A stretch of DNA of 53,243 nt, filler included, from Sluysia triapertura (taxonomy: Eukaryota): NCBI GenBank assembly GCA_046118255.1. It is 4 parts of 4 records of this genome, joined end to end, with 100 filler letters (N's around TTAATTAATTAA, not from the genome) between each part and the next. Parts side by side here need not be neighbours in the genome. Positions count along the whole stretch, not along the records: positions 25,243 to 40,653 come from JBJNIA010229012.1; 3 more parts are not named here. One strand, written 5' to 3'. Position numbers and translations under genes: made by a program. This document shows positions 13,702-52,740 of the stretch, piece by piece (the stretch's first letter is position 1; each line of letters begins with the position of its first letter). Under the pieces are notes generated by a model. The model did no database searches, had not been told where the DNA came from, and was given only the letters and a program-made list of their open reading frames with translations.

Positions 13702-13801
13702 NNNNNNNNNNNNNNNNNNNNNNNNNNNNNNNNNNNNNNNNNNNNTTAATTAATTAANNNNNNNNNNNNNNNNNNNNNNNNNNNNNNNNNNNNNNNNNNN
13801 N
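13702..13801. other. artificial contig spacer (N44-TTAATTAATTAA-N44)
   Basis: Identical 100-bp construct occurs three times; the 12-mer gives stops in all six frames. Confidence 0.97.
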
Positions 13802-26527: not shown

Positions 26528-27650
26528 ATGCCTAAAACAGTATTTTTATTTACATGATTGATGTTTTAACTATTTTATGTAATAGATAAATGTTAGCATA
26601 ACGACAATGGAGTCAGAATTACAGTTTTGTCTTCAGAATAAAACTGTTGCCAGACAATTATTTGAACAGGTTATCAAAACCATTGGTTTACGTGAAAGTT
26701 GGTTTTTTGGTTTATTATATAAAGACAATAATGAAAATTATTGTTGGTTAGATTTAAATAAAAAAGTGAGTAATTTTTTTGGCAATTTTGGAAATGAGGG
26801 ATTTGTAGAACTATAGGTTTATATTCAGTTTATAAATTAAAGTAATAACCATAAATATATGGTGGTTTTTAAATTTAATTGATTATTCATACGTAATTGT
26901 AAAGTTTTCATATTAAATGCATAAAGTTAATGCATGATTATTAAGTGCGTTATTTTTGTGAACACAAAGTTAAAGTTCTTTTATTTGTTACGAGGAAGAA
27001 GAAAATAACTAGAAATTAACTCAAAATCAATTAAAATTACATCTATTAAATTTATACGTTCAGAGTAATGTTAATTATTATTAATTATGCATTATTTAGA
27101 TTGTAAATATAAATGTGGACTTAAAGAAAATAATTCAATTTCAATTTCTGGTGAAATATTATCCAGAAGATGTAACTTCAGAAATAATTCAAGATATTAC
27201 TTTGAAATTTTTTTATTTACAAGTTCGAGAATCGATATTAAGTAGTGAAATATTCTGCCCCGCAGAAACAGCTTTATTACTTGCTTCTTATGCTTGTCAA
27301 GTAAAGTTTGGTGATTATAATCCAGAAATACATAAAGCTGGCTTTCTAAATCAAGAAAGGTTATTACCAACTAGGTTAATTTTGATAATAATTATTCACT
27401 AAACATAAATGATTGATAGAATCAAGAATCAATATAATTGGTCTGCTAATCAGTGGGAAGAAAAAGTCGTAAAGTGGTATTTGGAACACATGGGAATGTT
27501 ACGTGAAGAAGCTATGCTTGAATATTTGAAATTGGCGCAAGACCTAGAAATGTATGGAGTCAGTTATTTTGAAATTTTCAACAAAAAGAAATCAAAGCTT
27601 TTTCTTGGTGTAGATGCATTAGGATTAAGCGTGTATAAATATTCAGATAA
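26528..27650 (+). CDS. Moe: ERM family protein (moesin/ezrin/radixin), exons 1-4 covering FERM N and M lobes (26528-26539, 26586-26765, 27100-27374, 27420-27650); 3' part not found
   Basis: MPKT|[14 protein letters not shown]...[27 protein letters not shown]|..[45 protein letters not shown]..|..[34 protein letters not shown]; GT-AG introns of 46, 334 and 45 nt in frame; MPK start fits ERM rather than merlin. Confidence 0.96.
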
Positions 27651-28779
27651 GTAAGTTATTGATTGTTTTTATTTTTAATCATTTGAATTATCTAAAAATA
27701 TTGAGTTATTTATGTTAATAATAGTAAAGTTGGATCATAACATGCCATTTGTAACTGTATTTGTTGGATTTAATAAATTCTTAAACTTTAATTAATTTTA
27801 GTTTAAAAAAGTAATGAAATTCTAACAAAAGTCTAATCTTTATTTATAATTAACGTTTAAAACTTATTCAAAGATTTAAATTAAACAGTATTTGTCTTTA
27901 TTCACTATGCACGATGCATGATTTTATTAAACATTATTGTCGACTCTGATCGTGAAACTTTGAAATGCTTCACTACATGGTTGATCTTTTGCACTAAAAT
28001 GTTTAGTTATAACTTCTAACGAAATTAGTAAGAAAATCCTTGATTTTAATCTGTAAAATGTCTTTTTGTAATTTTGAAAAACATACTATTCGAAAGAGTT
28101 TATTAATCTGTCAGTGTTTCGGATGATAGAAATAAAGTTGGTTCATGATGAACTAAGTTAACATTAATTTGACCAATGGTTTGAGGCTCATGATATATTC
28201 TTGATGTATTTTCAAAATGATTCAGAGAAATCACGATTTATCAATTATTCGTTAATTTATAATTATAATTATAATTGGGTTATAATTCGTGAAGTTATAG
28301 TTATAATTAAGGTTCATTTTGATAAAGTTTTTGCGTTATTTATATATTTGATATTTTCTTAAAAGTTTTTGAATTTTATAAGTGTCCACTAGAAGTGGTC
28401 TTATATATAATAACGAATCAGATAAAGAAAACAAGGATCCAATGGAAGAAAACACGATAACTCGTAAGCAAACGTCAGAACTCATATCAGAGATGAATCG
28501 TCCAATTCTTAACCAAAACTTAAAAATAGAGAAGTTCGCAGGGGATGGAAAGATACTTTTAGATTTTATAAGTGAATACAACGAAGAAGCAGAGAGAAAA
28601 ATGTATAAAGTTCCCTTCAAACTTAACAGGACATGCGTCCAATGTTAATATTATTATTAATAGACAATACTAATGACACGTTACCATTGGGAAATATTGA
28701 AAATTCAGAAATTCAGAACCCAAATGACAGAGAGGTATTAACTATACCATATGATATTGACGAATTACAAGATGAAGTG

Positions 28780-29095
28780 ATGTTAAGAGAACAGAGAAAT
28801 GATAAAAATATTAAACTCATTATTAACGCTATACAAAGTGCTAACGCGACAGAACGTATTTTCCAAGGCCATGAATTACAAAATAATTTATTAAAATACA
28901 AAGTAAACAATAAGTTGTTAATCGTTACATCCAGCTCGAGGAAAACCGTTATACTAATTCATTACCATCGTGGAGAGTTTGGGGATCATCTTACAGTAGA
29001 TAAAACTTTAAACAGAATTAAGAAAAAATATTATTGTGACAGAATGGATCAAGAAATAAGCAAATGGTACCAAGAATGTAAAATGTGCAATTTTT
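28780..29095 (+). pseudogene. extra integrase-type HHCC zinc-binding domain without catalytic core (element A)
   Basis: EQRNDKNIKLII...LLKYK...ILIHYHRGEFGDHLTVDKTLNRIKKKYY...KWYQECKMC parallels the true IN N-domain at 31910-32215. Confidence 0.8.
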
Positions 29096-29207
29096 GGAAT
29101 ACACCGACAGAATACACAATAGCTAATCAATATAACAACAGTTTTATCAAACAGAATTTCGTCTGGCAGGAAACACATCAATACCCATATGCAGACTGTA
29201 CCAAAAA

Positions 29208-29490
29208 GTAACCATTAACGGAAAAATAATACAAGGATTAATCGATACAGGATCGGATGTAACCATCAGAAGATATAATAGTATACTTGAACATGAAAGA
29301 GTAAATCTAATAGAGGTATTTGACACATTTGAAGGAATAGATAGATCAACTACTATATTTAATCGGTAAGAAATAGAAGTAGATTTACAACAAAAAATAT
29401 TTCGTGTAAAATTAGCAGGAGTACATGACTGCCCCGAAGAATTAATAATAGGTATGGACATTTTAGACAAAATCCCGATGTACTGATAAA
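29208..29490 (+). pseudogene. retropepsin-like aspartic protease 1 (element A)
   Basis: VTINGKIIQGLIDTGSDVT ... VHDCPEELIIGMDILDKI. Confidence 0.88.
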
Positions 29491-30255
29491 TAAAGGTATC
29501 GAGTTAAAAAGCGGATTATACATGCAAAGCGCGAGACTACAAGAAAGTCTATGTATGCTACAACTTAAAGAAAAAAATAGGCACATGTTCCAAGGGAGAG
29601 ATGGATATGTTAAACTAGGAGATCTATCCAAAGAATTGGAGAAAGCCTTAAAAAATCCTAATGATATGGATAAATTAGAAACTATTATAAACACTATTAT
29701 GAATTCTCACGATCCATTACATGAATATCCGCAACTGAAACAAACTAAACAGATCAATGCAAACATGGCCATTAAAACATAAAAAGAAAATTTTTGAACT
29801 ATTTAACAAAATCGGAGATATAGAAAGAGACTACTATCGAGAGAAAACTGAGAGTTAAAATAAGAATAGAAGAAACGAATCAAGTAATAGACAATATACT
29901 AATTTCAAAATTAGTATAACAATATACTCATTACAAAACTATGTGAAATATTATTTAAATACTACTCAACCAGTAGAAATGTATTATAGAGACAGAGTAC
30001 GGATTATATTTAATAGATTATGGATTTCCAATAAATTATTTAAATGAAGAAGATGAAATCTGTGCTGTAATAAGGAAAGATGAAAATAGTAATTCAGATC
30101 CTAACAACACTCAGTGTAATAATGAGATAAACCAAAGATATTTCAACTAGGTGTACAGAGAAATGGAAATAGCGAGTCAAAGACGAGGACTACTATTAAG
30201 GGGAGTAGGAGAATTCTATTACATGATGCAGCAAGAAGATAACTGTACAAATGCA

Positions 30256-30545
30256 TTCCATACAACAGTAGAATTCAATAAGGAAAAATACGAAGCTTTA
30301 TTAGATACTGGTGCAACGCACTCTCTTCAATAGTCGAATCCTGAACAACGATACGATCAATAAAATAGTGCCTCATAATAAAACAGTAACAACTATAGGA
30401 CAAAATCATTTTAGGGAAACTAAAATGTGACATTTCAATCGCAGGTCATATGATACAGTGTACGTCTAGGGTTATAAAACATTGTCCCTACAACATAATA
30501 ATCGGAATGGACATATTGATACAAATTCCAGAAATACTAATAGAA
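30256..30545 (+). pseudogene. retropepsin-like aspartic protease 2 (element A)
   Basis: VEFNKEKYEALLDTGATHS ... VIKHCPYNIIIGMDILIQI. Confidence 0.9.
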
Positions 30546-31199
30546 AAACGAATAGAATTAAGAAATGTGGGAAAAAGAACATTGTTTCATAAAAGAGACA
30601 AATATAGATATTATGAAGCATGTGATCTACGAGAGAGACTAGCAGAAGCTCTCAAAGCTCCAGTGGATGCAAAGGAGTTAGAAACCACAATTAATACCAT
30701 CTTAAACTCAAACGAACCATTGCATGAATATACGCCTCTAAAACACCGACTACTTGATGTAGTTCAATCATGGATGCCTAGTCGAAGAAAAAAGATATAT
30801 CAATTATTACGAGAGATAGGAGACAGAAAGATTTGTATATAAATACAAGCGAATTCGAATAAGAATGAACATAGTGGAAATAGGAATGATATCGAGAATT
30901 TGATATAGGTATGGATATAAGTTTATTGAAAAATGTAGAAGTTAAAGCAAATATACATACAAGTGTAGACGTATTACAGAGATAGATATTTAATAGATCC
31001 TGCATACGTATTAGATTATGGTTACCCAATAGACTACTTAACTGCAGAAGACAAAATAACTGTAGTAATTCCACATGACGAGAATGGAGGACGACATAGA
31101 ACGAATCTATTCGACAATTACATCGAAATATGGAGAGAGGACGAAATACGAAACCAAAGAGGGAATAAATTCCTACAAACAAGAACAAACGGTCATATG

Positions 31200-33110
31200 T
31201 ACCTCTCCAGACCCAAAGAAAATAGAGAAAGTTAAATTATTTCCAACCCCTACTAAACAAGTAGAAGCAAAAGCTTCCCTCGGTTTGGCCAATTACTATA
31301 GAAAATTTATAAAGAACTTCGCAACGATTGCCAGACCATTAACTGAATTAACTATAAAGGACTATAAAGACGTGAGGGAGAAGGGCAAATTAATCAAAAA
31401 TTTTATTTGGAACGATAACCACGAAAAGGCATTTTAATCTCTAAAAACTGCACTTACAACAGCTTCGATTTTACGATTTCCCGATATGGAAAAACCATTC
31501 ATACTCATGACAGATGCGAGTGATTTTGCCATTGGGGAAGTCCTCGGACAAAAAGATAAAAAAGAAAGCGTCATCGCGTACCGAAGTCGTAGATTGAACT
31601 CATGTGAGAATAGAAAAAGAATGTTTGGTAATTATCTACGCACTGAAACAATTTAGGCAATATCTATTGGGTCATAAAATATATTTATACACGGATCATA
31701 AACCCCTAATGTATTTACGGGATATTCGAAACGTAACCGGCAGATTAGCCAGATGGAGTTTAGCATTAGCGGAATATGACATAGAGACAACTTACAGGAA
31801 AGATGCATACAATAAAAATGCTGAATTCATGTCAAGACTCGAAAACGTCAACAAAAAAGGAGATACATGCACAATGGTAGTGAACCTAAGCAATAACGAA
31901 AAATCCATGGCACAAGCGCAAAGAGAGGATCCAGAATTGAAACTTATAATAGATCTTATCATTGATAACGAGATAACCGATGAATTAGCTGCCAAATGGA
32001 ATCTAGAAAATAGTCTACTGAAATACGTAACCAGGGAAGGACTACGAACTGTAGTACCAGAAACACGAAAAGTTGCTTTACTGATTCAATACCACGACGG
32101 TCAATTAAGTGGACATCTATCAGCCGGAAAAACATTAAAAGAGATCGAACAAAAATATTATTGGAAAAGAGAAGACGTTAAAGAATGGTGTAACACTTGT
32201 CATATATGCACATCAAGAAAAAATACAGGGACGAAAACGAAAACACCTTTGCAACCAATGCCAGTACCAACGAGCCCGATGAAGATAACAACAATGGACA
32301 TTCTAGGACCATTACCAACTACATCGAGGGGAAATAAGTATTTTCAGACTATCAAACAAGATGGCCTGAAGCCTTTCCTATGTAGGATCAAAAGGCGGAA
32401 ACAGTAGCACAACTATTTGTTGAAGAAATAGTATATCGTTACGGAGCACCAAAAAAATTACTTACCGATAGAGGAAAGAATTTCGTAAGTGAAACTTTGA
32501 CCGCCGTCACAAAATTCTTTGGAATGATCAGAATATACACTTCGCCGTACCATCCACAAACCGATGGACTAGTAAAACGGTTTAATAAGACATTAGCAAA
32601 CATGTTACAATCTTATGTGAACTCCAAGCAAACAGACTGGGATCTGTGTATAAAACCGTGCTTATTTTCAAACAGAAATGCAGTGTACTCAACCACAAAA
32701 GAAACACACAAACATGCCGATCGATCTGGATTGGTCAGGTTCTCAATCACAATATATGGAAGCCCCAGATTATTTGGCGATACTAAAATCTCGTCTGAAT
32801 GAAGCATGGACAAAAGCTGGTCTAAATATAAAACATAATCAAGAAAAAATGAAAGAATATCACGATAAAAAGGCTAAGCCTCATAATTTCAGAATAGGAG
32901 ACAAGGTCTTAATTTACGATTCTGTAATATCAAAAGGACAGTCACCCAAATTGAATAGACCATTCAAAGGTCCATGCGAGGTCGTAAATACCACTCCTAC
33001 TAACCTAGAAGTAATATCAAATAAAAATTCTAAGAAAACCAAGATTGTACACTCTAAAAGGTGCAAAATATCAGTAAAGGAATCTCTCTATAACCTTCGA
33101 TCTAAAGAAA
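31200..33110 (+). pseudogene. pol: pol remnant: RT thumb/connection, RNase H, integrase with GPF/Y module
   Basis: ORFs 31075-31437, 31604-32407, 32497-32802 and the 5' part of 32678-33733 carry canonical Ty3/gypsy motifs. Confidence 0.95.
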
Positions 33111-34963
33111 AAGGTACAATATGTATGATACAAACTGACAGTGCCAGGCGGAACGCTTATTCTAACAAAAGACAAATCTTCCAAATGTTATTATTACTTC
33201 TCATTCTGAACGCCTTAATTACTGGTACCAATTCATGCAAAACAAGAATAGACGAGAGCCCCGTGAAATTTGAGAGATTCAATAACCAACTTTTAGCTTA
33301 TCTTAAAAATAACGCCTCAAGCGCTTTACTTCACTGTAAACCCTCATGCTATCGTCATTCATGCAAAATTGTTACAACCATAGTATACCTTAACAAGAGG
33401 GACCCATTATTTTCAATTTTATGCGACGGTAAGGACACATGCACATGTTACTGCACAGTAGTAAGGGAATCTTATATATGGATGCTACATTACCCCAACT
33501 ACGAAACAAATACTACTAATAATCTAGCGGTACTAATAATCATTATTCAGTTTAACAATGATAATCCCGCTTCTTTTCCTTTTGTTTCTATTATTAACCC
33601 CTTTTTATTAACACAATTTTTTAAAAAAAACCGACCAAAAAAATCAATTTTTTTATTTAAGAAAATACATATTTTGACCTTAATTTCAATAAATATTAAG
33701 TTATTTTTAATGCCCGGATATATTCGAATCTGAACATTTTAGCGACATAAGTTGCGATGCCGACCGTATATATAAGGGTCTGCATATTTTGTCCGGTTTT
33801 GCATGCCCATGTTAATACGTTAAGGGGTTAATCCTTTTGCTATTCATCCGAAAAGGATGGAAAACCTAGACTTTACAAAAAATCAAAACCCCGTCTTAAA
33901 ATGAAGCAACGACCAATACTTCAATGCCCCCATCATACTCATTTAATCTACCACTTATGAACACCAATTTTATTTTTACTTAGAATCATCGCATGTACTT
34001 ATTCTTAAAATTGGACATCGCATTTAATATATTCCCTTAAATTACACGAAATTTCCATTTATGCCAACCATTATAGTAACCTATCTTTGCGAATCACAAT
34101 TTCCAGAGAGTATTTCAATTTTACGATCGAAAATACACCTAATTCGGAACTGTTAGCCAATTTTAAACAATTACGACCTAATCGGATATATAATGTATCT
34201 ATTACTAACCTTAATCCTGTTTATAGAATGAATCAACCAATAATTCATTACATTAAGTTCTTTCTTAAAACGAACGACTTTCCGCAGGCAGACGAAACGA
34301 TTAAGAGAGTAACCAACTATCTATAGATCAAAACTACATCGGACTCCATAAAGTCATCTTTGTTTATTATACCATTCATTGTCCTCATTAAGTGCCCTAA
34401 TTTGAAGATAAAAGTCGTAGGCGAAAATCATCCTGCCGTATGTAAACAGTTACTGCCCGAAACATACCACAAAATACCTATTTGGATACCAATTTTCATG
34501 GAACAACGATCTAGAAAATTCGAAAATTTTAATCTCCCTACGAAACAGGAGATTATGACATACTGTACTATATGATAACGGACCCCGATGATAATTATCT
34601 ATATTTTGACGGTGCCAAAAATAATTCCGAAACTATAAAACTTTTCACTTACAACTCCTCTCTTAACAATTAACGAATCACAAAATTTAACTAGCTTCCA
34701 AAGCCCGTCAATGAATCTTACAGCAAAGGTAGCCTATCTAAAAGAGGACAATGCATGCACCTATCCGACTAATTTAATGAAGATATTACTGATAGCCGTA
34801 GGCGTGCAACTTTTATGAATTACGATTTCTATGATATTATCTATTTGGCAATGGTCAAAACCTATGACAACTCATAAAAAGCACAATGACAACCCGGCTA
34901 TTAGCAGTCCAATACGCTTAATGACATTAGGAAATCCTAATCTTGATAAATTCTATGTTTATC

Positions 34964-35240
34964 AATTCATGCGCTTACAGACACCGCCGCACCCTATACT
35001 ATGAGACGTTTTGAGTCATTACAAGTACAGGAATTACCCTTTCTCAGGTCAACTGCTGGTCGGTTGATCGATGCTATGGGTCGCGAACTGCCCATAATAG
35101 GCATAATTTCCAATTAGGTCGAAATTCTCGATAGGAAAATAATAACCACTTTTGTAGTCATACGATGATGTCCCACCTCTTGTATTATAGGTCTAGACAC
35201 AATTCGCGCACTAAATAACCTAGTAGTTCATCCTATTACC
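34964..35240 (+). pseudogene. retropepsin-like aspartic protease 3, downstream of integrase (element A)
   Basis: IHALTDTAAPYT...RLIDAMGRELPIIGII..VEILDRKIITTFVVIR*CPTSCIIGLDTIRAL: ALxDT(G>A)A site, flap region and IIGLD motif; not in the supplied ORF track. Confidence 0.75.
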
Positions 35241-35308
35241 GTACTTACTCTTATGTACCCTTTAACCTGTTACCATAACTTATGCCTACAAATACGTTAA
35301 TTCCATCT

Positions 35309-35450
35309 AAGGAAGGCGCATCTGATACACATTTTCTTTTATAATTATAAACGCATGTTATAGTTAGGAATTGTAAACATATGAATATACATTTTTCTTA
35401 ATCACTTACTATAGTTAGGGAATTGTACATATATTGTTGTTTTAACACTC
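35309..35450 (+). promoter_or_regulatory. putative polypurine tract and start of 3' LTR of element A
   Basis: AAGGAAGGCGCA-tc-TGATAC (TG at 35323) soon after the last coding remnant; duplicated TATAGTTAGG(G)AATTGTA motif follows. Confidence 0.45.
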
Positions 35451-35754
35451 GGGTAATAATATTGAATGCAATAATATTGAGGTATGTGTGGTGATACAGC
35501 CTCATAAAGTAAACACTACCCTTACTTTAATCAAAAATCACACAAACTTCATTACAAAAGTCACACTAAAATATTGTAAATTTGTAATCTTTACAATATT
35601 ACACCCTTTCCTAATTAACAAAACATAGACGCATAATAAACTCTAACATTTTTTTAATTGCTGTTTATTGATATAGAAGTAACAATTGTCGCTACGTCAT
35701 CACCACGTCAACATCACTCCTTTACTGTATCCTTTTTATACAGAATTACTGTAA

Positions 35755-36273
35755 ATGCTTCATACATTGTGTAATATTTTATATTCAAGATTTATACAGT
35801 ACTTTCGTAAAGACATTCCAAGCAATTATGTAAACAATTCGGTAACTTCCTATCACACACTAACAGATTACACAGATCTATGCGATGATTTGATCGGTGT
35901 TTACAAAAACAAAGTGTTTGGTAAACTTACAGTATCAGAAATGGTTCATTTTAATGCCAGTAAATTAGTATATTTAAAATATGGTACATTATTTAATGGG
36001 ATATTGTTGAAATCTGTTGAAAATTGTACTATAAATGAATTTTATACAATACCAAATAATACGCCTTCTCAATTTTATTCATATAAGTTCTTTATGCATA
36101 CTCTACCGCCATATCGGTTCAGTAGTCCAACAACCATCTTCAATGATAATCGTCACATATTAACCAGTAACAAACACTGTCATATTGTTTTTCGAAAAGT
36201 TATTTCATCTATGAAACGTAACAATGTATTGCCTATAGATTCAAACTTAAGTTTAGTCCTGATGATATTATAA
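35755..36273 (+). CDS. hypothetical protein (172 aa ORF)
   Basis: Long ORF for this AT content; no family recognised. Confidence 0.3.
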   Translation: MLHTLCNILYSRFIQYFRKDIPSNYVNNSVTSYHTLTDYTDLCDDLIGVYKNKVFGKLTVSEMVHFNASKLVYLKYGTLFNGILLKSVENCTINEFYTIPNNTPSQFYSYKFFMHTLPPYRFSSPTTIFNDNRHILTSNKHCHIVFRKVISSMKRNNVLPIDSNLSLVLMIL

Positions 36274-36449
36274 GTTTTGCTAATATTATCATTTAAAATG
36301 TTCTCGTTTGTGTTTAATTTTTATTATAAATATCTTTAAATATTTTTGGTAACACTTAATTACATTTTAATATGAATACTAGTTTGTTTGAATATTGACA
36401 CACAAAAATTATTAATCCTGTTTCTTTTTATTTTAAATATTTTAAAGAC

Positions 36450-37235
36450 ATGATTGAGCAAAAATTTGAAATTAACATAATCGGTGAGTTTGTGAAATCA
36501 ATGGAATATCAAGTCGAAAATGAAATTAACGATTTTAAAGTACCTGAACATTATAAATTTGGTATCTATTACGGCGAAGGATACGATTACGTGCAACAAT
36601 TAGTCAGTATGAAAGATTTCAAAAATCTAAACCTTGAGTTACCACAACAAATGAACAGTGCCAGTTTTGAAGAATTATGTTGCAATTCGACTCGTTCATT
36701 TCAAATAGAATCATATGTGAGTCAATCTTCACTAGTTTCTGAGAAATCGGTTATTAAAAGTTGTAGATCGAAACAAGATTTGAAGTATCAGCATTGTTGT
36801 TCAAGTTGCGTATGGAGTTTGTGCTTAGTTGGGTACTTGACCGAATATTTAAATTTAAATTTACAGGCGAGGAATCGTAATGACGAATGTCCTGTTAGAC
36901 AGAGACAGGGTTTTAGAAACCAACAAAGTTTAAAAATGGATGATAGAAGTAATTACTGCTCGTTCACTAGTGGACAACAGCTAGAAATTATAAGAGATTC
37001 TAAAATTTCGATTGATGAACTCCCAGTAGAAGTTTACTTACATTTGTTAGACTTATCTACAATTTTATTTAGTGTATTAGTTAGTTATTGTGTATCATCA
37101 ATAACCATGGTTTGTAATAATATAATCAATTCATGTTACTTTTATTATGTTCGCCCACTAAGACAAATATTATGTACCTTTATGTGCCTTAAGCACAAAA
37201 TTATTGATAAAGATTGTACACAACCAAAATTTTAA
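36450..37235 (+). CDS. hypothetical intronless protein (261 aa) with Cys-rich patches and a C-terminal hydrophobic segment
   Basis: ATG-initiated 786-bp ORF flanked by AT-rich DNA, AATAAA downstream near 37273. Confidence 0.55.
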   Translation: MIEQKFEINIIGEFVKSMEYQVENEINDFKVPEHYKFGIYYGEGYDYVQQLVSMKDFKNLNLELPQQMNSASFEELCCNSTRSFQIESYVSQSSLVSEKSVIKSCRSKQDLKYQHCCSSCVWSLCLVGYLTEYLNLNLQARNRNDECPVRQRQGFRNQQSLKMDDRSNYCSFTSGQQLEIIRDSKISIDELPVEVYLHLLDLSTILFSVLVSYCVSSITMVCNNIINSCYFYYVRPLRQILCTFMCLKHKIIDKDCTQPKF

Positions 37236-40653: not shown

Positions 40654-40753
40654 NNNNNNNNNNNNNNNNNNNNNNNNNNNNNNNNNNNNNNNNNNNNTTA
40701 ATTAATTAANNNNNNNNNNNNNNNNNNNNNNNNNNNNNNNNNNNNNNNNNNNN
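40654..40753. other. artificial contig spacer
   Basis: N44-TTAATTAATTAA-N44. Confidence 0.97.
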
Positions 40754-41204: not shown

Positions 41205-41772
41205 TGTCAAAGTAATTAATTTTTTGATAAGTTTTAATCGTTTAACTCTATAAGGAAACGTAAAATCGACTCCAAATCATTTTTATTTTTATGCAACACC
41301 TTAATATGGGTTGTGAAACATATTCCTATAATCTTGTGAAACGGCCAACGGAGGTTGAGGTCGTTGCTTAAATTATTATTCATATTATAACTTTCTTTTT
41401 AATAATTTTTGTAAGAATTAATTTTTGTCGTTAATATACTTTAGGAATATTAGAGTCTTTTAATTTAATAAACTTATAAAATTCGTTTTGTTAATCAACA
41501 CCTTAATACGGATTGTGTAATTATAAAATCTGTAATTTTAATTAAACAACACCTCGTAAAGGGTTGTATTATAAATTAATTAAAAAAGAGTCACAAGAGA
41601 TTAATCATTTTTATATAAGTCATAAGTAAAGAAGTTTTTCTAAAGTTAATTAAGTTAAGTTATAAAAAATCCTAATAGTACGTCTAATAGAGTTATAAAT
41701 CGTATATATTAGGCGAACCGACTCTTTAGATATTTTGTAAGTAAGATTAAGTTTTTAATGGAAACACTTTCA
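41205..41772 (+). repeat. putative 5' LTR of element B (5' boundary uncertain)
   Basis: Ends in CA at 41771-41772, five bases before the PBS; shares sequence blocks with 25250-25300 and the reverse complement of ~11375-11425; TG at 41205 is only a candidate start. Confidence 0.5.
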
Positions 41773-42104: not shown

Positions 42105-43510
42105 TTGAATCTTACGTTAAGAATAGATAAAAATAATAACCCTATGAAGAAATATAAGAGAACTTTAAGAAGCAACTCACTTGAGAGATTTACAATGACA
42201 GTACCATTTGAAGAATTTAAAGATTGTATGACTCAACTGACCCAGAATGTTAAGCCAATAGTAATACTTCCAGAAATGCGCGAGTTTAGTGGCGCCGAGG
42301 AAGATCTTTGTGATTTTTTATTTGAATTCGATAGCCTAGCTGAAGCTAATGGCTGGTCACCGATAGATAAGGTTAAGAGAATACAACATTATTTAACTGG
42401 TGTTCGATACAAACATATAAGGAGATAAAAGATGAACATAAGGAAGATTGGAATACAATAGAAGACCTAAGAAAATACTACGCGAGAATGCTTAATATAA
42501 GGGTACCGAAACCGCACGAAACAGTTTGTGAATTTGCCTACGCTTTTAGAAGTTTAGCATCCAGAGCCAGGATTGCAGATAACCGAAAAGAAATAGTATT
42601 AATAGATAAGTTTATATAGATTTAATTGAGGAAATCCCATTCAAAGACACAGCTAAGAAATGAAGAAGTATTGAACGTACTAAAAATGAAACCAGAAAAA
42701 AATATAAGTTACACAGATGATAGCAAGAATACAAGAAATAATTATAAACATAAATATGAGAATTCCTTTGACGATAATAATTATAATGAACCCCCTAAGT
42801 ATGAGAATTCCTTTGAAGACAGTAACTTTAATAGTAATAACAGTAGTGTTAATGGGAATAGAGATAACAGTATCAATAACTTTCGAGGTAACAAAAGAAG
42901 AAATTCAAATAATTTTAGAAATAATCCGGTAACAAATTACACTAATGTTGGTAGAAGTAATAGAGGATTTGAGAAGAGACAAATAAATGATATGGGTTCA
43001 AGAGAGTATGAACAACGTCCACTGCCAAGATGGCCCAGTAAACAAGCGAATAATACTAATAATAATTCAGTAAGAGACAAAAGTCCTGCACAATCAAACT
43101 ATAATAACAATTATGAAACTAGAACAAATATAGAAGGTGATATAGTATGTCACAGTTGTGGTAGACATGGGCACTATGCTCGAAATTGTAATAAGTTAAG
43201 GTCAAATACTTTTAAGCAATTTTTAAATAAAATGTCGAACTCTAGACAGGCCTCACCAAGGAGAGTAAAATTCGACATGAGTAGGAATGACGGACAAATA
43301 AATTGCAATTATAATGAGGAGTATGAAGATTACAGATATGAAAGACATCCAAGAACACTGACAAATGAAGAGGAAGAGATGTTAAGAGAATTTTGTATAG
43401 AAAAAATGGACAATAATGAAATTGAGGAAGAAAAGAACAACCCAGGAGTAGGCATGATGAAGAAGAGGATATGTTTATTAATTATTTACATAATTACTTT
43501 ATGGAGTTAG
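42105..43510 (+). pseudogene. gag: gag of element B
   Basis: Capsid-like REFSGAEEDLCDFLFEFDSLAEANGWS..YLTG; KPHETVCEFAYAFRSLA; Asn-rich linker; zinc knuckle CHSCGRHGHYARNC. Confidence 0.92.
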
Positions 43511-45036
43511 TAAAAGAAAAGAAAAAGGAATATAAGAAGAGTAAAGAGATGGAAGAGCAGCAAAAATCAAAAATAATTAAAAGTGCTCAGCAAATTGAAG
43601 AAGAAAAAAAATATGCCGAAGTAATTTTAAGTAGATGGATGAAGCATAGCGGTATAACAGAAGAGGACGAAGACAGATATCGATAGTGTATTAAACATAG
43701 AAGAAGAAATAATTAGCTTATACGATCAAGAAGAAGAACTGGATGACATACTCTCAGATACTGAGCCAATGATTATTTTAGGTAATGAAGAAGATATACC
43801 AACCGAGGAAAATAGCACACAGAAAACAACATTTAGTGGTTTATCTAAAGAGGTAGAAATATTTCTTTCAGATTTATCAGAAGCTAAAAATATGGATACA
43901 AATTTAAATATACTTTTAAAAATAAATTTAGATATGTTTAATAGACAAAATATTAGGTCATGTTTACTTTACTTAAGTCAGGCAGATAGCACACATAGCT
44001 TTAAGGCAAGGATTGGTATGTTTATTTATGGAATTACCTGTTACTATAGTAGTAAAAGATGCATTTGACATGCTTAAACTATTTCTTTAAATTATATTTC
44101 TTTAATAGATATTTAGAACCCAGAGAATATTTAATAAATTACGGTTACCCGTTGGGTGATCATGACGAAATGATAAAGGCAGAAATAGTACAAGAAAATT
44201 CAAATAATGTTGAAAACGAAACAAATAAAAATGATAATGAATCCCCACATACGTTACCAAGACAATTAATGGAGGATGATGATAAACATGTAGTTGACAT
44301 TGATGCTGAAGCAGAAAATAATGAGTTAGTTGATATCGATGCCGAAGAAGGAAAAGATGAGCCCCCCGATTATATAGTAAACCTTAATAAAAACACATAT
44401 ATAAACCGTCGACAAGGAAACAAATACAATAAAAAGAAGACCTGGGCGTCCACGAAGAGACGAAAATGATATAATAACTGCACCTGTTGTTAAGAATACT
44501 ATTAATTTATCAAAAATAAACTGTGAAAATGATGATGAAATTGAATTAGATAGTAAAGGAATAATTTTTGCATTTTTGTCCGAAAAGTTTACTAATTTTA
44601 CTAAATATAAGAAGTTATTGGCGGAAATCAACAAAGAGTATAAAGTTTCTATAAATAAATTAATAAGAAAGTTTGAAGAAAGATATAAGGATAAAGACAT
44701 TAGTGATTTTATAGAAAACGAGCAATAAAAGGTGGCAATAATTAAGTTAATTAATAAAGGATTGGATGAGGAAAAGTTGAAAATAATCTTAACGTACGTT
44801 AGATACCAATGCAACCAAGAAAGAATGGTTACAAAAATAAAATAGATAAGGTTATAGATTTTGTAATTAAGAAAACTAAATTATGGATTGAAAATCAAGT
44901 AGGTTGGCGCAATATAATAAAAGGGAAAAAGAATCAAAAAACGGAAGAGCCGACAAATATAATGGCACAATTATTCGACAATAACGGTAACATATTAAAT
45001 AGGACAATACCAAGGATAGGTAATTTGACAAATAAT

Positions 45037-46851
45037 ATGCTGTTTATCGTAATACCATTAACAATGTTCGGCATAAATAGAACTAATGCAATAAAGACAT
45101 TTGACTGTAGCCGGATACAAATGGGCAGAAAATTTTCATTATTCGACACAGAAGATTGTCCTGAATCAAGGCCAAATAGAATACGGTAAAAGATATTAAA
45201 ATAATGAGTGTTTACTAAGAAGGTAATCTAATAACGACTCTAATATGTAAAACGATCAGTGGCAGTCTGGTATTGCGGTCACCATATCCATTCATTAATA
45301 ATAGAATTATCTAATGTACTTAAACATAAACAATGTAGAGATGCATTTGAGACCGGCTATATAAGTCTAACAAAGGGAGACACATTGAAAATGGGAAATA
45401 ATGAAAAGATAATTTATAATATAAGAACTGCCGGAAATGTACTAATAGATGTGACATGTGAACAAGGAACAATATAATATGAAGGAAAAAAGAAACATAC
45501 GTAGTTAGTTTGAAATCTTTTAACGAGAGTTTTGATATGGAAAAAGGTACAGTGATCAAACCAGTTGCGACACTGGAGAATCAATACTAATTTAAGAATT
45601 GGACAAAATTCAATGTCCACTAATATTCCTTAAACAAATAAAATTTAATGTAATATCAGGATTCATGTATCAAGATAAAGACAAATACCCATTAGAAGAA
45701 ATAAATAAAAATACGGACCACATACAAAGAAAAAGACTAGATGAGGTCGAAACACCGACAATACTAATGACCAGTAGAGAAGAAGATGGTTTAATTTTTA
45801 TTTCAAAAAGGAACAATAATCTGCTGTGGAAAAGAAATAACAGAAACTAACTACTAAGGAATTTATCTCTCAGAGAAAATAATTCAAATAGCTAAGAAAG
45901 GCGTTGATACAAAAAAAACATAAAAGTAAATGCCTATATTAACAATAAAATCGATTTCTATTGCCATTTAGGATTGATTTCAAATTATGGTTATTCGGGA
46001 GTGTCAATTAAACAAAGAAATTTTGCACACAAAATTGTCACTAGCTATTACAAATACAGATTTTAGTCGCACTATTACTTCCATTAAAAGAAGGAATTTT
46101 CGGTCGACTAATGGGAAAGGTATTGTACACGTACAAATGTAAAAAGGTAGAAGTGCAATTAAAGTCAACTACCGAATGCACAATTGAATTACCTATATTA
46201 TACGGTAAAACAGAAGCATACCTTGACCAGTAACCAGAGTAATATTTCCAAATAATAAAGTCAAACCAAAATCAAATGTCATGGCACTGGAATATAGAAT
46301 TGATGATAATTTATGGATATCCTTACCACATAGAAGCCAGGTAAAAACTCCAGAAATAATAAGACTAACCGAATTAAAAGAAAAACTGAAATTTTTGGCT
46401 AGAAAAAATATACAAAATTCTGGCATTTATACGAATGACGATATTCAAGCAGCCTGGCGGGTGATACTATTCCCAATAAAGAGGTCAAAAGTTTTTGTAG
46501 ATAAAGCAACAATTAAAAAGAATGAACAAATAAATTTCGAATTACTATTGGAACCCGATCACTTTAAAAGAGCTGCACAAGATACACTGAAACAGATCTG
46601 TGGAATTAATATTAGGACAAGCATTTTCTGGATTAATAGGAATATATATATATATGTATATGATTAAGGTAATAGCGTTGATAATTTCTCAAGCCTTTTC
46701 AGTAGTCGGAATTTATAAAATCTCAGGATTTTTGTGGAAATTGATAATTGGATGTTTTCCATTCCTGGCAAAATACCTCTTGCACCACCATGCAAATGCT
46801 CAAATAAATGGATTAAGAAAAGAAAGACAATACACAGAAGATAACAATTAA
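45037..46851 (+). pseudogene. env: chuvirus/Jingchuvirales-like (class III-type) envelope glycoprotein of element B
   Basis: Signal peptide MLFIVIPLTMFGINRTNA then IKTFDCS..FSLFDTEDCP, WYCGHH, CRDAFETG, TCEQG, GIFGRLMGKVLYTYKCKKVEVQL...ECTIELPILYG, PVTRVI, SGIYT..D..VILFP and a C-terminal TM region; this motif order is what I recognise from chuvirus-type G proteins. Confidence 0.85.
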
Positions 46852-46994
46852 AAATATTACAATAGAGTAAAAATGAAGAAATAATAGAAAATCAAAAATG
46901 CATTGAAATTCAGAAAAACATAGAAACAACTAACGAAAATAAGAAAAGAGGACTATATCCTATTACTCCAACATCACCACCCCACGTAATCTAT

Positions 46995-47310
46995 ATGATA
47001 TGCGCTAATAACAATTATAATGGTTCAAAGAGACCAATAGTAAATGCTAGAATAGTAAACGGTAGAGTAGTAACAGCACTAATTGATATAGGAGCACTAG
47101 CCTCCTTAATCAACGAAAATTTCTTACATAAAGATGAATTAAAAAATTTAGCTAATCATACCTCTCATCTATCAGGGGTTACAGGCGATGCAATTAATAT
47201 AACTGGAGTAATGAAAGCTATATGCGAATTAGGACAAAATAGATTAGAAATTAAATTAAGAGTTATGAAAAATGTCCAGAAGAAATGATAATGGGAATGG
47301 CATATTGTCT
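46995..47310 (+). pseudogene. aspartic protease of element B
   Basis: RPIVNARIVNGRVVTALIDIGALASLINE...LSGVTGDAINITG...(frameshift) MIMGM. Confidence 0.88.
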
Positions 47311-47729
47311 CAATTAAAAGGAGTAAAATTAATGGATAGTCAATCAAAAAGAACTATTGATGATGATGACGTATAGGTATATGAACAAATCTGGTTAGTA
47401 AAAAGAAGTGAATATATAATGCCGGTCAAGACAAACAGTTTATTAACCGGAAATATCATGTTTATTGCACCAGATGTTAGATATAGGAATAGCTAGTGTA
47501 GTGTGGGAAAATACGTTAGGATTATAAACTACAGAGACAAAATTAGAAAAAAAGTTAAATATACAATACCATTTCGGAAAATAAAAGTAAAAATAAGATA
47601 AAAAGTAACATGAAATTACAACATGAGATACAAGACGAAAATTACGGTGAAATAGAAATTAATAATAACAGATATATTAATTATAAAGTGTCATTTACCG
47701 ATATCCAGGAGCAATAGCGAGAAATTGTA

Positions 47730-48260
47730 ATAATAAAACACGAGATACCGCTAATATTAGATAAAGTAATCCGAAAAAAGCCATACAGAATACCAATACG
47801 TATTCAAGAGCAAATAGATACCATGAAAAAAGCCGGAGTGATAAGACCAAGCTTCTCACCTTTCATCTTCAGTTTTATTAGTTAAGAAAAAAGATGGTAC
47901 AATGAGATTTTGTATAGATTTTAGAGAATTAAACAAGATAAGAAAAGACGTATTTCCTTTACCACGAATAGATGAAATGTTGGACAAATTAGGAAACGCC
48001 ACATATTTTACAACCATTGATCTACAAAGCGGTTATTGGCAAATCGAAATCGCTGAGAAAAATAAACATAAAACCGCATTCACTTGTGGCGATGAACTAT
48101 ATGAATGTGAAAAAATGCCATTCGGATTAACCTGCAACTTTCCAAAGGTGCATGAATTTCGTATACATAATAATATTTTCTAAAGATTTCGAATCACATT
48201 TAAAAGAATTAATTACAATATCTTGATATAATCATTTAAAGTTTAAACCAGAAAATTGGT
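47730..48260 (+). pseudogene. pol: reverse transcriptase (N-terminal half) of element B
   Basis: [76 protein letters not shown]; YxDD region damaged. Confidence 0.95.
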
Positions 48261-52094: not shown

Positions 52095-52479
52095 CTAAAT
52101 TTAATATTTAAAATAAATCAGCATTATTTTCCAGTTAATTTGGTTGTAGATATTATACGAAGAGAATTTTATATGCATCCTTCAATTTAACATTTTAATA
52201 AAATGCAAATTTATTTTGCTATCAATTTGAAAATAGAAAATAAATTAAAAGTATTTATGATTTAAAATGCATTTCTATTCTGCAGATAAACGATAAATAA
52301 GATTTTTCACAATGAATAATCCAGATTTCCAATGTCATTTTTGAAATATCTATGTATCACTCTATGTTTATTGGCCTATCGAAGTTGAGTCCATCAGGTT
52401 ACGATGTACGGAAGATACTCAAACATGCAATATTTAGAAACTCCAGAATATGTAACGATAATGAGGGAAAATTTACAGG

Positions 52480-52740
52480 ATGCACGGATTGCAGGCTTAA
52501 AAATGAAATATTCTCAAAAGATGCTCATGATAAAAAGACGAAAGAACACAAATTTCAAGTTGACGATAACGTATTGGTAGATTATCCACTATCAAAACCA
52601 GGTCCATGAGAAGTCAAAATCCTACCAATCTATTTATAATGGATCCTAACAAAATCGATGCTGAAACATTTGTGGTACATGTTAATAAATATAAAACGGC
52701 ACCTAAATAGGAATATAACTTATGAAATATAAAAGTTGAG
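52480..52740 (+). mobile_element. isolated Ty3/gypsy integrase C-terminal fragment
   Basis: KDAHDKKTKEHKFQVDDNVLV..PGP*EV...TFVVHVNKYK...EYNL parallels KEYHDKKAKPHNFRIGDKVLI..GPCEV..IVHSKRCK..YNLR in element A. Confidence 0.7.

What the first reader, a model, noticed from the sequence alone, without database searches (positions are those of the whole stretch)
28780..35240. Retroelement polyprotein with three aspartic proteases and a duplicated HHCC zinc finger
Seen: order is gag-N, HHCC (28780), PR1 (LIDTGS, 29208), X, PR2 (LLDTGA, 30256), X, RT-thumb, RH, IN, secreted/TM cargo, PR3 (ALTDTAA...IIGLD, 34964), PPT. The first HHCC domain runs almost directly into PR1 with no DDE core. All three proteases share a CPxxxIIG(M/L)D ending but are strongly diverged, which argues for old internal duplication rather than assembly stutter. 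Established: LTR retroelements normally have one protease upstream of RT. Inference: a large modular element whose extra proteases may process separate polyprotein segments, including the post-integrase cargo.
Basis: partly seen in the sequence, partly recalled or inferred. Interest (0 to 1): 0.8.

Follow-up and report, generated by a model that had tools for sequence, protein, structure and literature searches.

The report
Retrotransposon remnant with three proteases
This dead jumping-gene copy in an animal genome carries remnants of three protein-cutting enzymes where such elements normally have one: two come from an old doubling of a protease plus an unknown domain that other copies likely share, while the third sits in a block of membrane-protein genes that was likely acquired from a related element.

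Summary
Observation confirmed. A decayed Ty3/Gypsy-derived copy holds three retropepsin remnants and two bridge+HHCC domains; the RT fingers and palm are missing. PR1 and PR2 are part of a ~1-kb tandem unit, protease plus orphan domain X: 69% nucleotide identity, synonymous sites saturated, pN/pS 0.39-0.61. A contig from another locus (about 87% alike) bridges X1 to PR2, so this doubling is neither assembly stutter nor private to this locus. HHCC1 groups with the element's own HHCC2 (SH-aLRT 99), but no listed contig bridges HHCC1 to PR1. PR3 follows a signal-peptide/TM cargo that is in frame with the integrase, yet base composition changes at ~33150 and its link to pol in other copies is weak. 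The only nested insert found is a 230-bp piggyBac-like MITE. The shared CPxxxIIGMD ending is lineage-wide, so it does not show internal duplication. Best reading (0.5): a modular Gypsy family with duplicated PR-X and HHCC plus a recombined cargo-PR3 cassette. Main rival (0.3): a two-protease element joined locally to another element's tail. No intact copy was available. My searches found no such layout in print, and the scan had not noted it on other DNA.

The parts
28442..28740 (+). Gag N-terminal remnant; the capsid C-terminal part and CCHC knuckle are not seen before HHCC1
   Evidence: Translation; z 5.0 against the gag of the neighbouring element; no Pfam hit; laid by many contigs, bin depth 860-1390 over 28380-28659 and 485 at 28660-28699
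28780..29100 (+). Bridge ('mini') domain + HHCC zinc finger, copy 1, with no DDE core after it
   Evidence: Pfam Integrase_H2C2 E 1.4e-10; 37% aa to copy 2, z 27; groups with copy 2 and P0001 at SH-aLRT 99 among 55 rows
29166..30227 (+). Tandem unit 1: protease PR1 (29208-29471, DTG motif) + orphan domain X1
   Evidence: Pfam RVP E 7.6e-7; 547 of 793 aligned nt identical to unit 2, z 19
30228..31190 (+). Tandem unit 2: protease PR2 (30265-30521, DTG motif, frameshifted) + orphan domain X2
   Evidence: Profile hits on both halves; X blocks 54% and 50% aa to X1, z 23 and 16; X1-to-PR2 join bridged by a contig of another locus (record 2)
31190..31207 (+). Junction where the RT fingers and palm are missing
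   Evidence: No RVT_1 hit; P0001 carries the palm and aligns only from 31207; 5 contigs have loose ends before 31207
31207..31780 (+). RT thumb/connection and RNase H
   Evidence: Pfam RT_RNaseH_2 E 4.5e-21 and RT_RNaseH E 1.4e-16; 56-61% aa to P0001
31901..32224 (+). Bridge domain + HHCC zinc finger, copy 2 (canonical, in front of the integrase core)
   Evidence: Pfam Integrase_H2C2 E 2.6e-14; profile
32290..33110 (+). Integrase core and C-terminal domain, frameshifted
   Evidence: Pfam rve E 2.4e-7, MLVIN_C E 0.05
33173..33597 (+). Cargo 1: predicted signal peptide, Cys-rich ectodomain and a predicted TM helix in another frame; in frame with the integrase C-terminus
   Evidence: 0 stops in 314 codons 32654-33597, shuffled mean 21.7; hydrophobic runs at 33173 and 33537; no Pfam or NCBIfam hit and no Atlas score above 0.77
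33598..33827 (.). 230-bp piggyBac-like MITE nested in the cargo, TTAA on both sides
   Evidence: Inverted ends; flanks printed; two contigs of single-locus depth skip it (joints 33576->33852 and 33577->33849)
33832..34940 (+). Cargo 2: decayed ORF with a probable second signal peptide (read by eye), ectodomain, predicted TM at ~34774 and a linker
   Evidence: 7 stops in 352 codons, shuffled mean 23.7, minimum 10 of 300 shuffles; hydrophobicity
34962..35210 (+). Protease PR3 remnant (DTA at the DTG position in this copy, internal stops)
   Evidence: Profile iE 7.6e-8; tblastn E 8.6e-4 with P0007; 24% aa to PR1, z 8.4
35309..36040 (+). Weak polypurine tract followed by repeated, mostly non-coding DNA: candidate 3' LTR, no partner found
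   Evidence: Bin depth 1285 and 1079; no matching 5' copy; PPT scan

Best explanation
This is a dead, internally deleted Ty3/Gypsy-type retrotransposon copy with three protease remnants and two HHCC domains, and it likely reflects a high-copy modular family that gained them by old domain duplications plus one cassette swap. Shown: the remnants and their order; PR1-X1 and PR2-X2 are one ~1-kb unit doubled long ago with both copies under amino-acid constraint; HHCC1 is from the same lineage as HHCC2; the cargo-PR3 block differs in base composition but starts in frame with the integrase; the RT core is missing here. Inferred: template switching between co-packaged RNAs during reverse transcription (established for LTR elements; my own knowledge) doubled PR-X and copied the bridge+HHCC domain behind gag, and later joined a membrane-protein + protease cassette from a sister family behind the integrase. 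In a working element PR1 and PR2 would process Gag-Pol and release X. Retropepsins work as dimers (my own knowledge), so two proteases on one chain could pair with each other and need less crowding to activate. PR3 would sit on the cytosolic side of the last TM helix and cut itself and the cargo where PR1/PR2 are absent, as on an env-like separate message. The extra HHCC would serve as a zinc-binding or multimerising appendage of Gag. All of these functions are untested.
For: Unit alignment z 19, 69% nt. pS 0.76, pN 0.37 over 151 codons, pN/pS bootstrap 0.39-0.61; X alone 0.29-0.62. A 345-nt contig with 43 other letters and 12 gap letters spans 30021-30367, the X1-to-PR2 join, from another locus. 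Contigs of high word depth lie on gag, HHCC1, both PR-X units, RH, IN, cargo 2, PR3 and the 3' repeat, against 5-12 on the host flank. Another locus has the same sequence upstream of HHCC1 (328-nt contig plus loose end), and another runs on from HHCC1 to ~29169 with the same non-DDE linker. HHCC1+HHCC2+P0001 at SH-aLRT 99. PR1-3 group at UFBoot 94 / SH-aLRT 95, 82 once PR4 is completed. The IN-to-signal-peptide frame is open for 314 codons. gag to IN share one A-rich composition. Flatworm Gypsy elements are known to pile up extra domains (Burro; PMC6431247, passages).
Against: No intact copy was seen. No listed contig bridges 29169-29189 (HHCC1 to PR1), and depth there falls to 23, from one contig; a similar dip (56) also occurs inside X1, so a dip alone is not diagnostic. 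The X2-to-thumb join is not bridged in the listed pieces. One contig of depth 1491 runs from PR1-like straight into X2-like sequence (joint 29510->30583), as expected if an abundant form has a single PR-X unit. The IN-to-cargo link outside this locus rests on one joint with only 24 letters on one side, another contig leaves the alignment at 33063, and depth in 33106-33472 is 348 between bins of 6257 and 1537. The composition break at ~33150 falls exactly at that join. The protease tree has long branches that may attract. The pN/pS values come from protein-guided local alignments, which favour conserved codons. All copy evidence comes from one run, which may be the assembly's source; contig depth is no copy number, and only the best-supported rows were shown.
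Confidence: 0.5

Rival explanations
1. A two-protease Gypsy family (gag-HHCC-PR-X-PR-X-RT-RH-IN) is real, but at this locus it is joined at ~33150 to the 3' part of a different element (membrane cargo-PR-LTR, like the env-TM-PR stretch of a GAG-ENV-POL element), so no mobile unit carries three proteases.
For: Composition change point at ~33150 and PR3 unlike PR1/PR2 (p 0.0014), whereas the neighbour's PR4 is like them (p 0.69). No nucleotide similarity of PR3 to PR1/PR2. The neighbouring element has glycoprotein-TM-linker-PR, the same layout as cargo-TM-linker-PR3. Low depth in the joining bin. No LTR pair.
Against: The join is in frame with no stop and lands just before a signal peptide. No LTR or gag lies between IN and cargo. 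One other-locus contig holds both sides, weakly. PR3 groups with PR1/PR2 rather than with PR4 (weak).
Confidence: 0.3
2. The family is an ordinary one-protease, one-HHCC Gypsy element; the extra domains here are leftovers of several related copies nested or recombined into one another and then trimmed by deletions.
For: This copy clearly has large deletions (RT core, most of gag). The HHCC1-to-PR1 and X2-to-thumb joins are unbridged. A high-depth contig reads PR1-like into X2-like. Among the 68 related polyproteins examined, 0 of 67 with an HHCC hit and 0 of 44 with a protease hit have a second copy.
Against: X1-to-PR2 is bridged at another locus about 87% alike. The gag-side flank and the non-DDE tail of HHCC1 recur at other loci. 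The junctions are coding-to-coding without LTR remnants. The two PR-X units abut in exact register.
Confidence: 0.15
3. Assembly artefact: stutter or a mis-join of repeat copies.
For: The region is highly repetitive, and the run's contigs hold only 0.52 of the sampled words.
Against: The units are only 69% identical with saturated synonymous sites. A 3210-nt contig matches 28380-28537 with 0 differences and extends far upstream. A 390-nt contig matches 33745-34134 with 2 differences. No N-run lies within the element.
Confidence: 0.05

Closest known systems
Ty3/Gypsy (Metaviridae) LTR retrotransposons; nearest sequence P0001 (60% aa, unnamed ENA contig), then 24-46% for the other 67 hits, some labelled by their source as 412-like Pol of ticks
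   Same: PR, RT thumb, RNase H, bridge+HHCC and DDE integrase in Gypsy order.
   Different: Two PR-X units, a second HHCC behind gag and a third protease after the cargo. 0 of 67 and 0 of 44 of the 68 relatives examined have a doubled HHCC or PR. The RT core is deleted in this copy.
Planarian Burro/GYPSM1 giant Gypsy elements (PMC6431247, passages read)
   Same: Modular polyprotein with accessory domains, including a domain between PR and RT; a TM-bearing protein directly in front of a protease.
   Different: The passages describe one PR, BIR/BCL2/MATH/ankyrin/dUTPase extras and env between gag and PR in elements over 30 kb. This copy spans ~7.6 kb, has none of those Pfam domains, has orphan X between PR and RT, and has its cargo after IN.
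GAG-ENV-POL errantiviruses with HSV/gB-type env in Nematoda, Bryozoa and Platyhelminthes (PMC13524379, passages read)
   Same: TM glycoprotein followed by a protease; the 'mini' bridge domain before IN.
   Different: Fits the neighbouring element at 42.1-48.2 kb, not this one: no fusion-glycoprotein hit in this cargo, and the cargo lies after IN. The passages seen mention no duplicated protease.
Bdelloid rotifer Gypsy elements with diverse ORF3 cargo, including TM proteins (PMC5408684, passages read)
   Same: Non-env TM cargo downstream of pol.
   Different: A canonical single PR-RT-RH-IN is described; no protease after the cargo in the passages seen.
ASPRV1/SASPase, a domesticated retropepsin with an N-terminal hydrophobic segment (PMC11402058, passages read)
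   Same: Retropepsin behind a hydrophobic segment that is released by self-cleavage; an analogy for PR3.
   Different: A host gene, not a mobile element; the paper notes that its TM status is unproven. No homology test was made.

Membership tests
Ty3/Gypsy (Metaviridae) | RNase H, HHCC and DDE integrase homologous to Gypsy pol, with IN after RT-RH | tested here: met
   Pfam; 68 Gypsy-type polyproteins at E <= 1e-10
Ty3/Gypsy (Metaviridae) | Complete RT catalytic core (needed for an autonomous member) | tested here: not met
   No RVT_1 in 28400-35600; homology to P0001 starts at the thumb. The copy is therefore filed as a deletion derivative, not as an autonomous member
Ty3/Gypsy (Metaviridae) | One retropepsin upstream of RT | tested here: not met
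   Two upstream and one downstream of IN; this departure is the finding
Ty3/Gypsy (Metaviridae) | Paired LTRs, PBS, PPT and a target-site duplication | tested here: inconclusive
   Only a 3' candidate; no 5' partner (z 2.5); weak PPT; PBS not tested
Ty3/Gypsy (Metaviridae) | Placement by RT phylogeny | not testable with these tools
   The RT core is absent from this copy and no intact copy could be fetched
Burro giant Gypsy elements | env in frame between gag and PR | tested here: not met
   About 450 bp, mostly HHCC1, separate the gag remnant from PR1; a deletion in this copy cannot be excluded
Burro giant Gypsy elements | BIR, BCL2, MATH, ankyrin or dUTPase accessory domains; length over 25 kb | tested here: not met
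   No such Pfam hit in the three + frames of 28400-35600; span ~7.6 kb
GAG-ENV-POL errantiviruses (HSV/gB type) | Class III fusion glycoprotein between gag and pol | tested here: not met
   PF24664 hits only the neighbouring element, not this element's + frames
piggyBac-type MITE (the 230-bp insert) | TTAA duplication, CCC...GGG inverted ends, empty sites elsewhere | tested here: met
   and the joints; the family hallmarks are recalled, not from a call

The most novel reading that the evidence does not exclude
An animal (probably flatworm) Gypsy family transposes as one unit with three working proteases and two HHCC domains: a tandem PR-X-PR that may act as a self-pairing single-chain protease, and a membrane-tethered third protease dedicated to a tandem membrane-protein cargo. 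That would be a division of proteolytic labour that my searches did not find described for any LTR retroelement.
Probability: 0.35. Interest if true: 0.75.

Novelty: new variant of a known kind. Interest (0 to 1): 0.5.

Why it matters
LTR retrotransposons and retroviruses carry one protease whose dose and dimerisation time particle maturation (established knowledge). A family that kept two or three diverged proteases under selection would show that this rule can be broken. It would also give a natural test of tethered protease pairs and of a protease reserved for envelope-like cargo. Domain X has no detected relative among 1.84 billion representative proteins, yet it is conserved between the two units and recurs in a second element of this window, so it is a new retroelement accessory domain. 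If the layout is only a local chimera, the value falls to a note on decay and recombination among Gypsy copies.

Tried and rejected
Whole genome: not held. The tool for contig context of proteins was closed, so the contig of P0001 was not seen. Related loci: none confirmed in JGI metagenome contigs (192 and 594 pattern matches) or IMG/VR (84 matches). Domain X: 0 hits in 1.84 billion representatives; 0 of 804 candidates among longer proteins; no Pfam or NCBIfam hit; Atlas best 0.89 with low recognition, a lead only. The AlphaFold model of X's first half from a 2-row alignment gave four helices at pLDDT 61, with no BFVD match at E <= 0.001 and only generic helical matches at Z <= 8.7; uninformative. 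HHCC1 as query: 0 of 129 candidates scored; weak evidence. Cargo: no family and no Atlas lead; no similarity to the other membrane ORFs tested in the window (z < 1). PR3 has no PDB sequence hit. No RNA holder was listed, which says nothing on expression. No tRNA gene in the window. LTR pairing tests were negative. The shared C-terminal motif was rejected as evidence of internal duplication. Literature: ten full-text searches were answered, of which some aimed at doubled proteases or an upstream zinc finger; no listing described such an element. Four papers were read as passages only, none in full. The Burro genome paper could not be opened, and Repbase-type catalogues and most subscription papers are not searchable, so a prior description may exist. 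No complex prediction was run, because the proteases are broken and a pass would reflect likeness to solved dimers.


Full report
Setting. The window is AT-rich eukaryote DNA with short introns. FERM_N and FERM_M exons of an ERM/merlin-like gene lie at 26607-27650, just upstream of the element, which points to an animal. Earlier notes of this scan call the genome a flatworm; I did not test that. No whole genome is held. One public run, X1, holds 0.52 of the sampled words of 27001-37000 and may be the source of the assembly.

Observation. Pfam finds Integrase_H2C2 twice (E 1.4e-10, 2.6e-14), RVP once, RNase H and rve, and no RVT_1. PR2 is split over two frames and PR3 has stops, so Pfam is weak or silent on them. 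A profile from 31 proteases cut from the 68 polyproteins scores PR3 at iE 7.6e-8, PR1 at 5.1e-6 and the PR2 halves at 1e-3 and 5e-3 over 534 six-frame chunks; the best reversed control is 0.87. All three are real retropepsin remnants. The PPT is weak, and no LTR partner was found.

PR1 and PR2. They are parts of a tandem unit of about 1.0-1.06 kb that also holds domain X. The units align at 547 of 793 nucleotides (z 19); the X blocks are 54% and 50% identical in protein, the protease blocks 29%. Over 151 aligned codons pS is 0.76 and pN 0.37, with a bootstrap ratio of 0.39-0.61; the alignments are protein-guided, which biases the ratio down. The window copy differs from high-depth contigs by roughly 12-16% in the pieces listed (18 of 147; 54 of 328), so the doubling is much older than this insertion. 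A 345-nt contig with 43 other letters spans the X1-to-PR2 join and comes from another locus. Against this, one contig of depth 1491 passes from PR1-like into X2-like sequence; it may be a single-unit form or a third variant of the unit. X has no detected relative outside this window, but its YYRDRY...DYGYP block recurs in the neighbouring element at 44095-44238 (z 8.7).

The second HHCC. The duplicate includes the bridge helix and strands before the finger, and is 37% identical to the canonical copy (z 27). In a 55-row tree it groups with HHCC2 and the closest outside relative P0001 at SH-aLRT 99, on a longer branch. Laying contigs on 28380-29579 (183 laid; only the best-supported rows shown) gave high depth on gag and HHCC1. 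A contig from another locus carries the same sequence upstream of HHCC1, and another continues from HHCC1 to about 29169 with the same non-DDE linker. Nothing listed bridges 29169-29189, where depth falls to 23. A similar dip lies inside X1, so the dip may mark a variable linker or a deletion in this copy. The gag-HHCC1 adjacency is therefore repeated in the genome; the HHCC1-PR1 adjacency is shown only at this locus.

RT. P0001 (60% identical over RNase H to HHCC2) carries the RT palm and aligns to the window only from the thumb at 31207. Five contigs have loose ends before 31207. This copy lacks the RT fingers and palm and cannot be autonomous. Whether X2 is followed by RT in intact copies is inferred from the usual PR-RT order, not shown.

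Cargo and PR3. The frame stays open from the integrase C-terminus into a predicted signal peptide (0 stops in 314 codons). A 230-bp insert with TTAA on both sides and CCC...GGG inverted ends interrupts a hydrophobic stretch, and two single-locus contigs skip it: a piggyBac-like MITE, the only nesting found. A second decayed ORF (7 stops in 352 codons, shuffled mean 23.7) ends in a predicted TM helix and a linker before PR3. The whole block differs in composition: the best change point is ~33150, PR3 differs from PR1+PR2 (p 0.0014), and the neighbour's PR4 does not (p 0.69). PR3 shows no nucleotide similarity to PR1/PR2. In trees PR1-3 group together (94/95; 82 with PR4 as sister; 29 outside rows, 2 of the 31 dropped as too short), but the branches are long. 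The C-terminal motif is also in PR4 and in 4 of 13 outside proteases where it could be read, so it marks the lineage, not an internal duplication. Evidence that other copies join this integrase to this cargo is one joint with a 24-letter side; another contig leaves at 33063, and depth in the joining bin is low.

Mechanism. I commit (0.5) to a modular Gypsy family built by template-switch duplication of PR-X and of bridge+HHCC, plus capture of a membrane cargo-protease cassette from a sister family. PR1 and PR2 would process Gag-Pol and free X, possibly pairing on one chain; PR3 would be membrane-tethered and cut the cargo. These functions are inferred and untested. Rivals: a two-protease family joined locally to another element's tail (0.3); an ordinary family with local nesting and deletions (0.15); an assembly artefact (0.05).

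Comparison. Among the 68 related polyproteins of 432-2000 aa, 0 of 67 with an HHCC hit and 0 of 44 with a protease hit have a second copy. Burro elements of planarians accumulate domains and place env before PR (PMC6431247, passages). GAG-ENV-POL errantiviruses occur in flatworms, nematodes and bryozoans (PMC13524379, passages). Rotifer elements carry TM cargo after pol (PMC5408684, passages). None of the passages seen shows more than one protease; supplements were not opened and may bear on this. Searches aimed at doubled proteases or an upstream zinc finger listed no such element, and the scan's own index had none. The element works like a Ty3/Gypsy retrotransposon and is filed as a deletion derivative of one; it is not Burro and not a GAG-ENV-POL element by the features tested.

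Verdict. The feature is real. The PR-X doubling is the firmest novelty, and the three-protease unit is plausible but unproven. New variant of a known kind; interest 0.5. The novel case has probability 0.35 and interest 0.75 if true.

Noticed in passing
window 42130-48180 (+): A second decayed Gypsy element with gag (CCHC), an X-like block, a Monjiviricetes-type fusion glycoprotein (PF24664, E 2.2e-16 and 1.8e-12), TM, protease and RT N-terminus: the GAG-ENV-POL layout described for Burro and flatworm errantiviruses.
   Followed up: partly
window 44095-44238 (+): The C-terminal block of orphan domain X recurs here, upstream of env, so X moves between positions and families (z 8.7).
   Followed up: partly
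window 33598-33827: 230-bp piggyBac-like MITE with TTAA duplication; empty sites seen in two other contigs.
   Followed up: yes
window 26607-27650 (+): ERM/merlin-like FERM exons with short introns; a motif search found no following exon in the window, so the gene may be cut by the element or continue beyond recognition.
   Followed up: partly
window 23891-25045 (-): Long ORF with one internal stop and several hydrophobic or signal-like segments; no convincing Pfam hit and no similarity to this element's cargo.
   Followed up: partly
window 35755-36273 and 36399-37235 (+): Two orphan ORFs (172 and 278 aa) behind the candidate LTR, on DNA that is itself repeated (bin depth 188-490); no convincing Pfam hit.
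   Followed up: partly
window 52419-52600 (+): Fragment of another integrase C-terminus, 35-45% aa to this element's.
   Followed up: no
window 25251-25301 and 41694-41743; 16402-16611 and 22369-22600; 14241-14339 and 21305-21405: Further dispersed repeat pairs, 73-82% identical; the first matches the DNA just upstream of the second element's leader.
   Followed up: no
window 13702-13801, 25143-25242, 40654-40753: Three 100-base scaffold gaps made of 44 N, TTAATTAATTAA and 44 N; none lies in the element.
   Followed up: no
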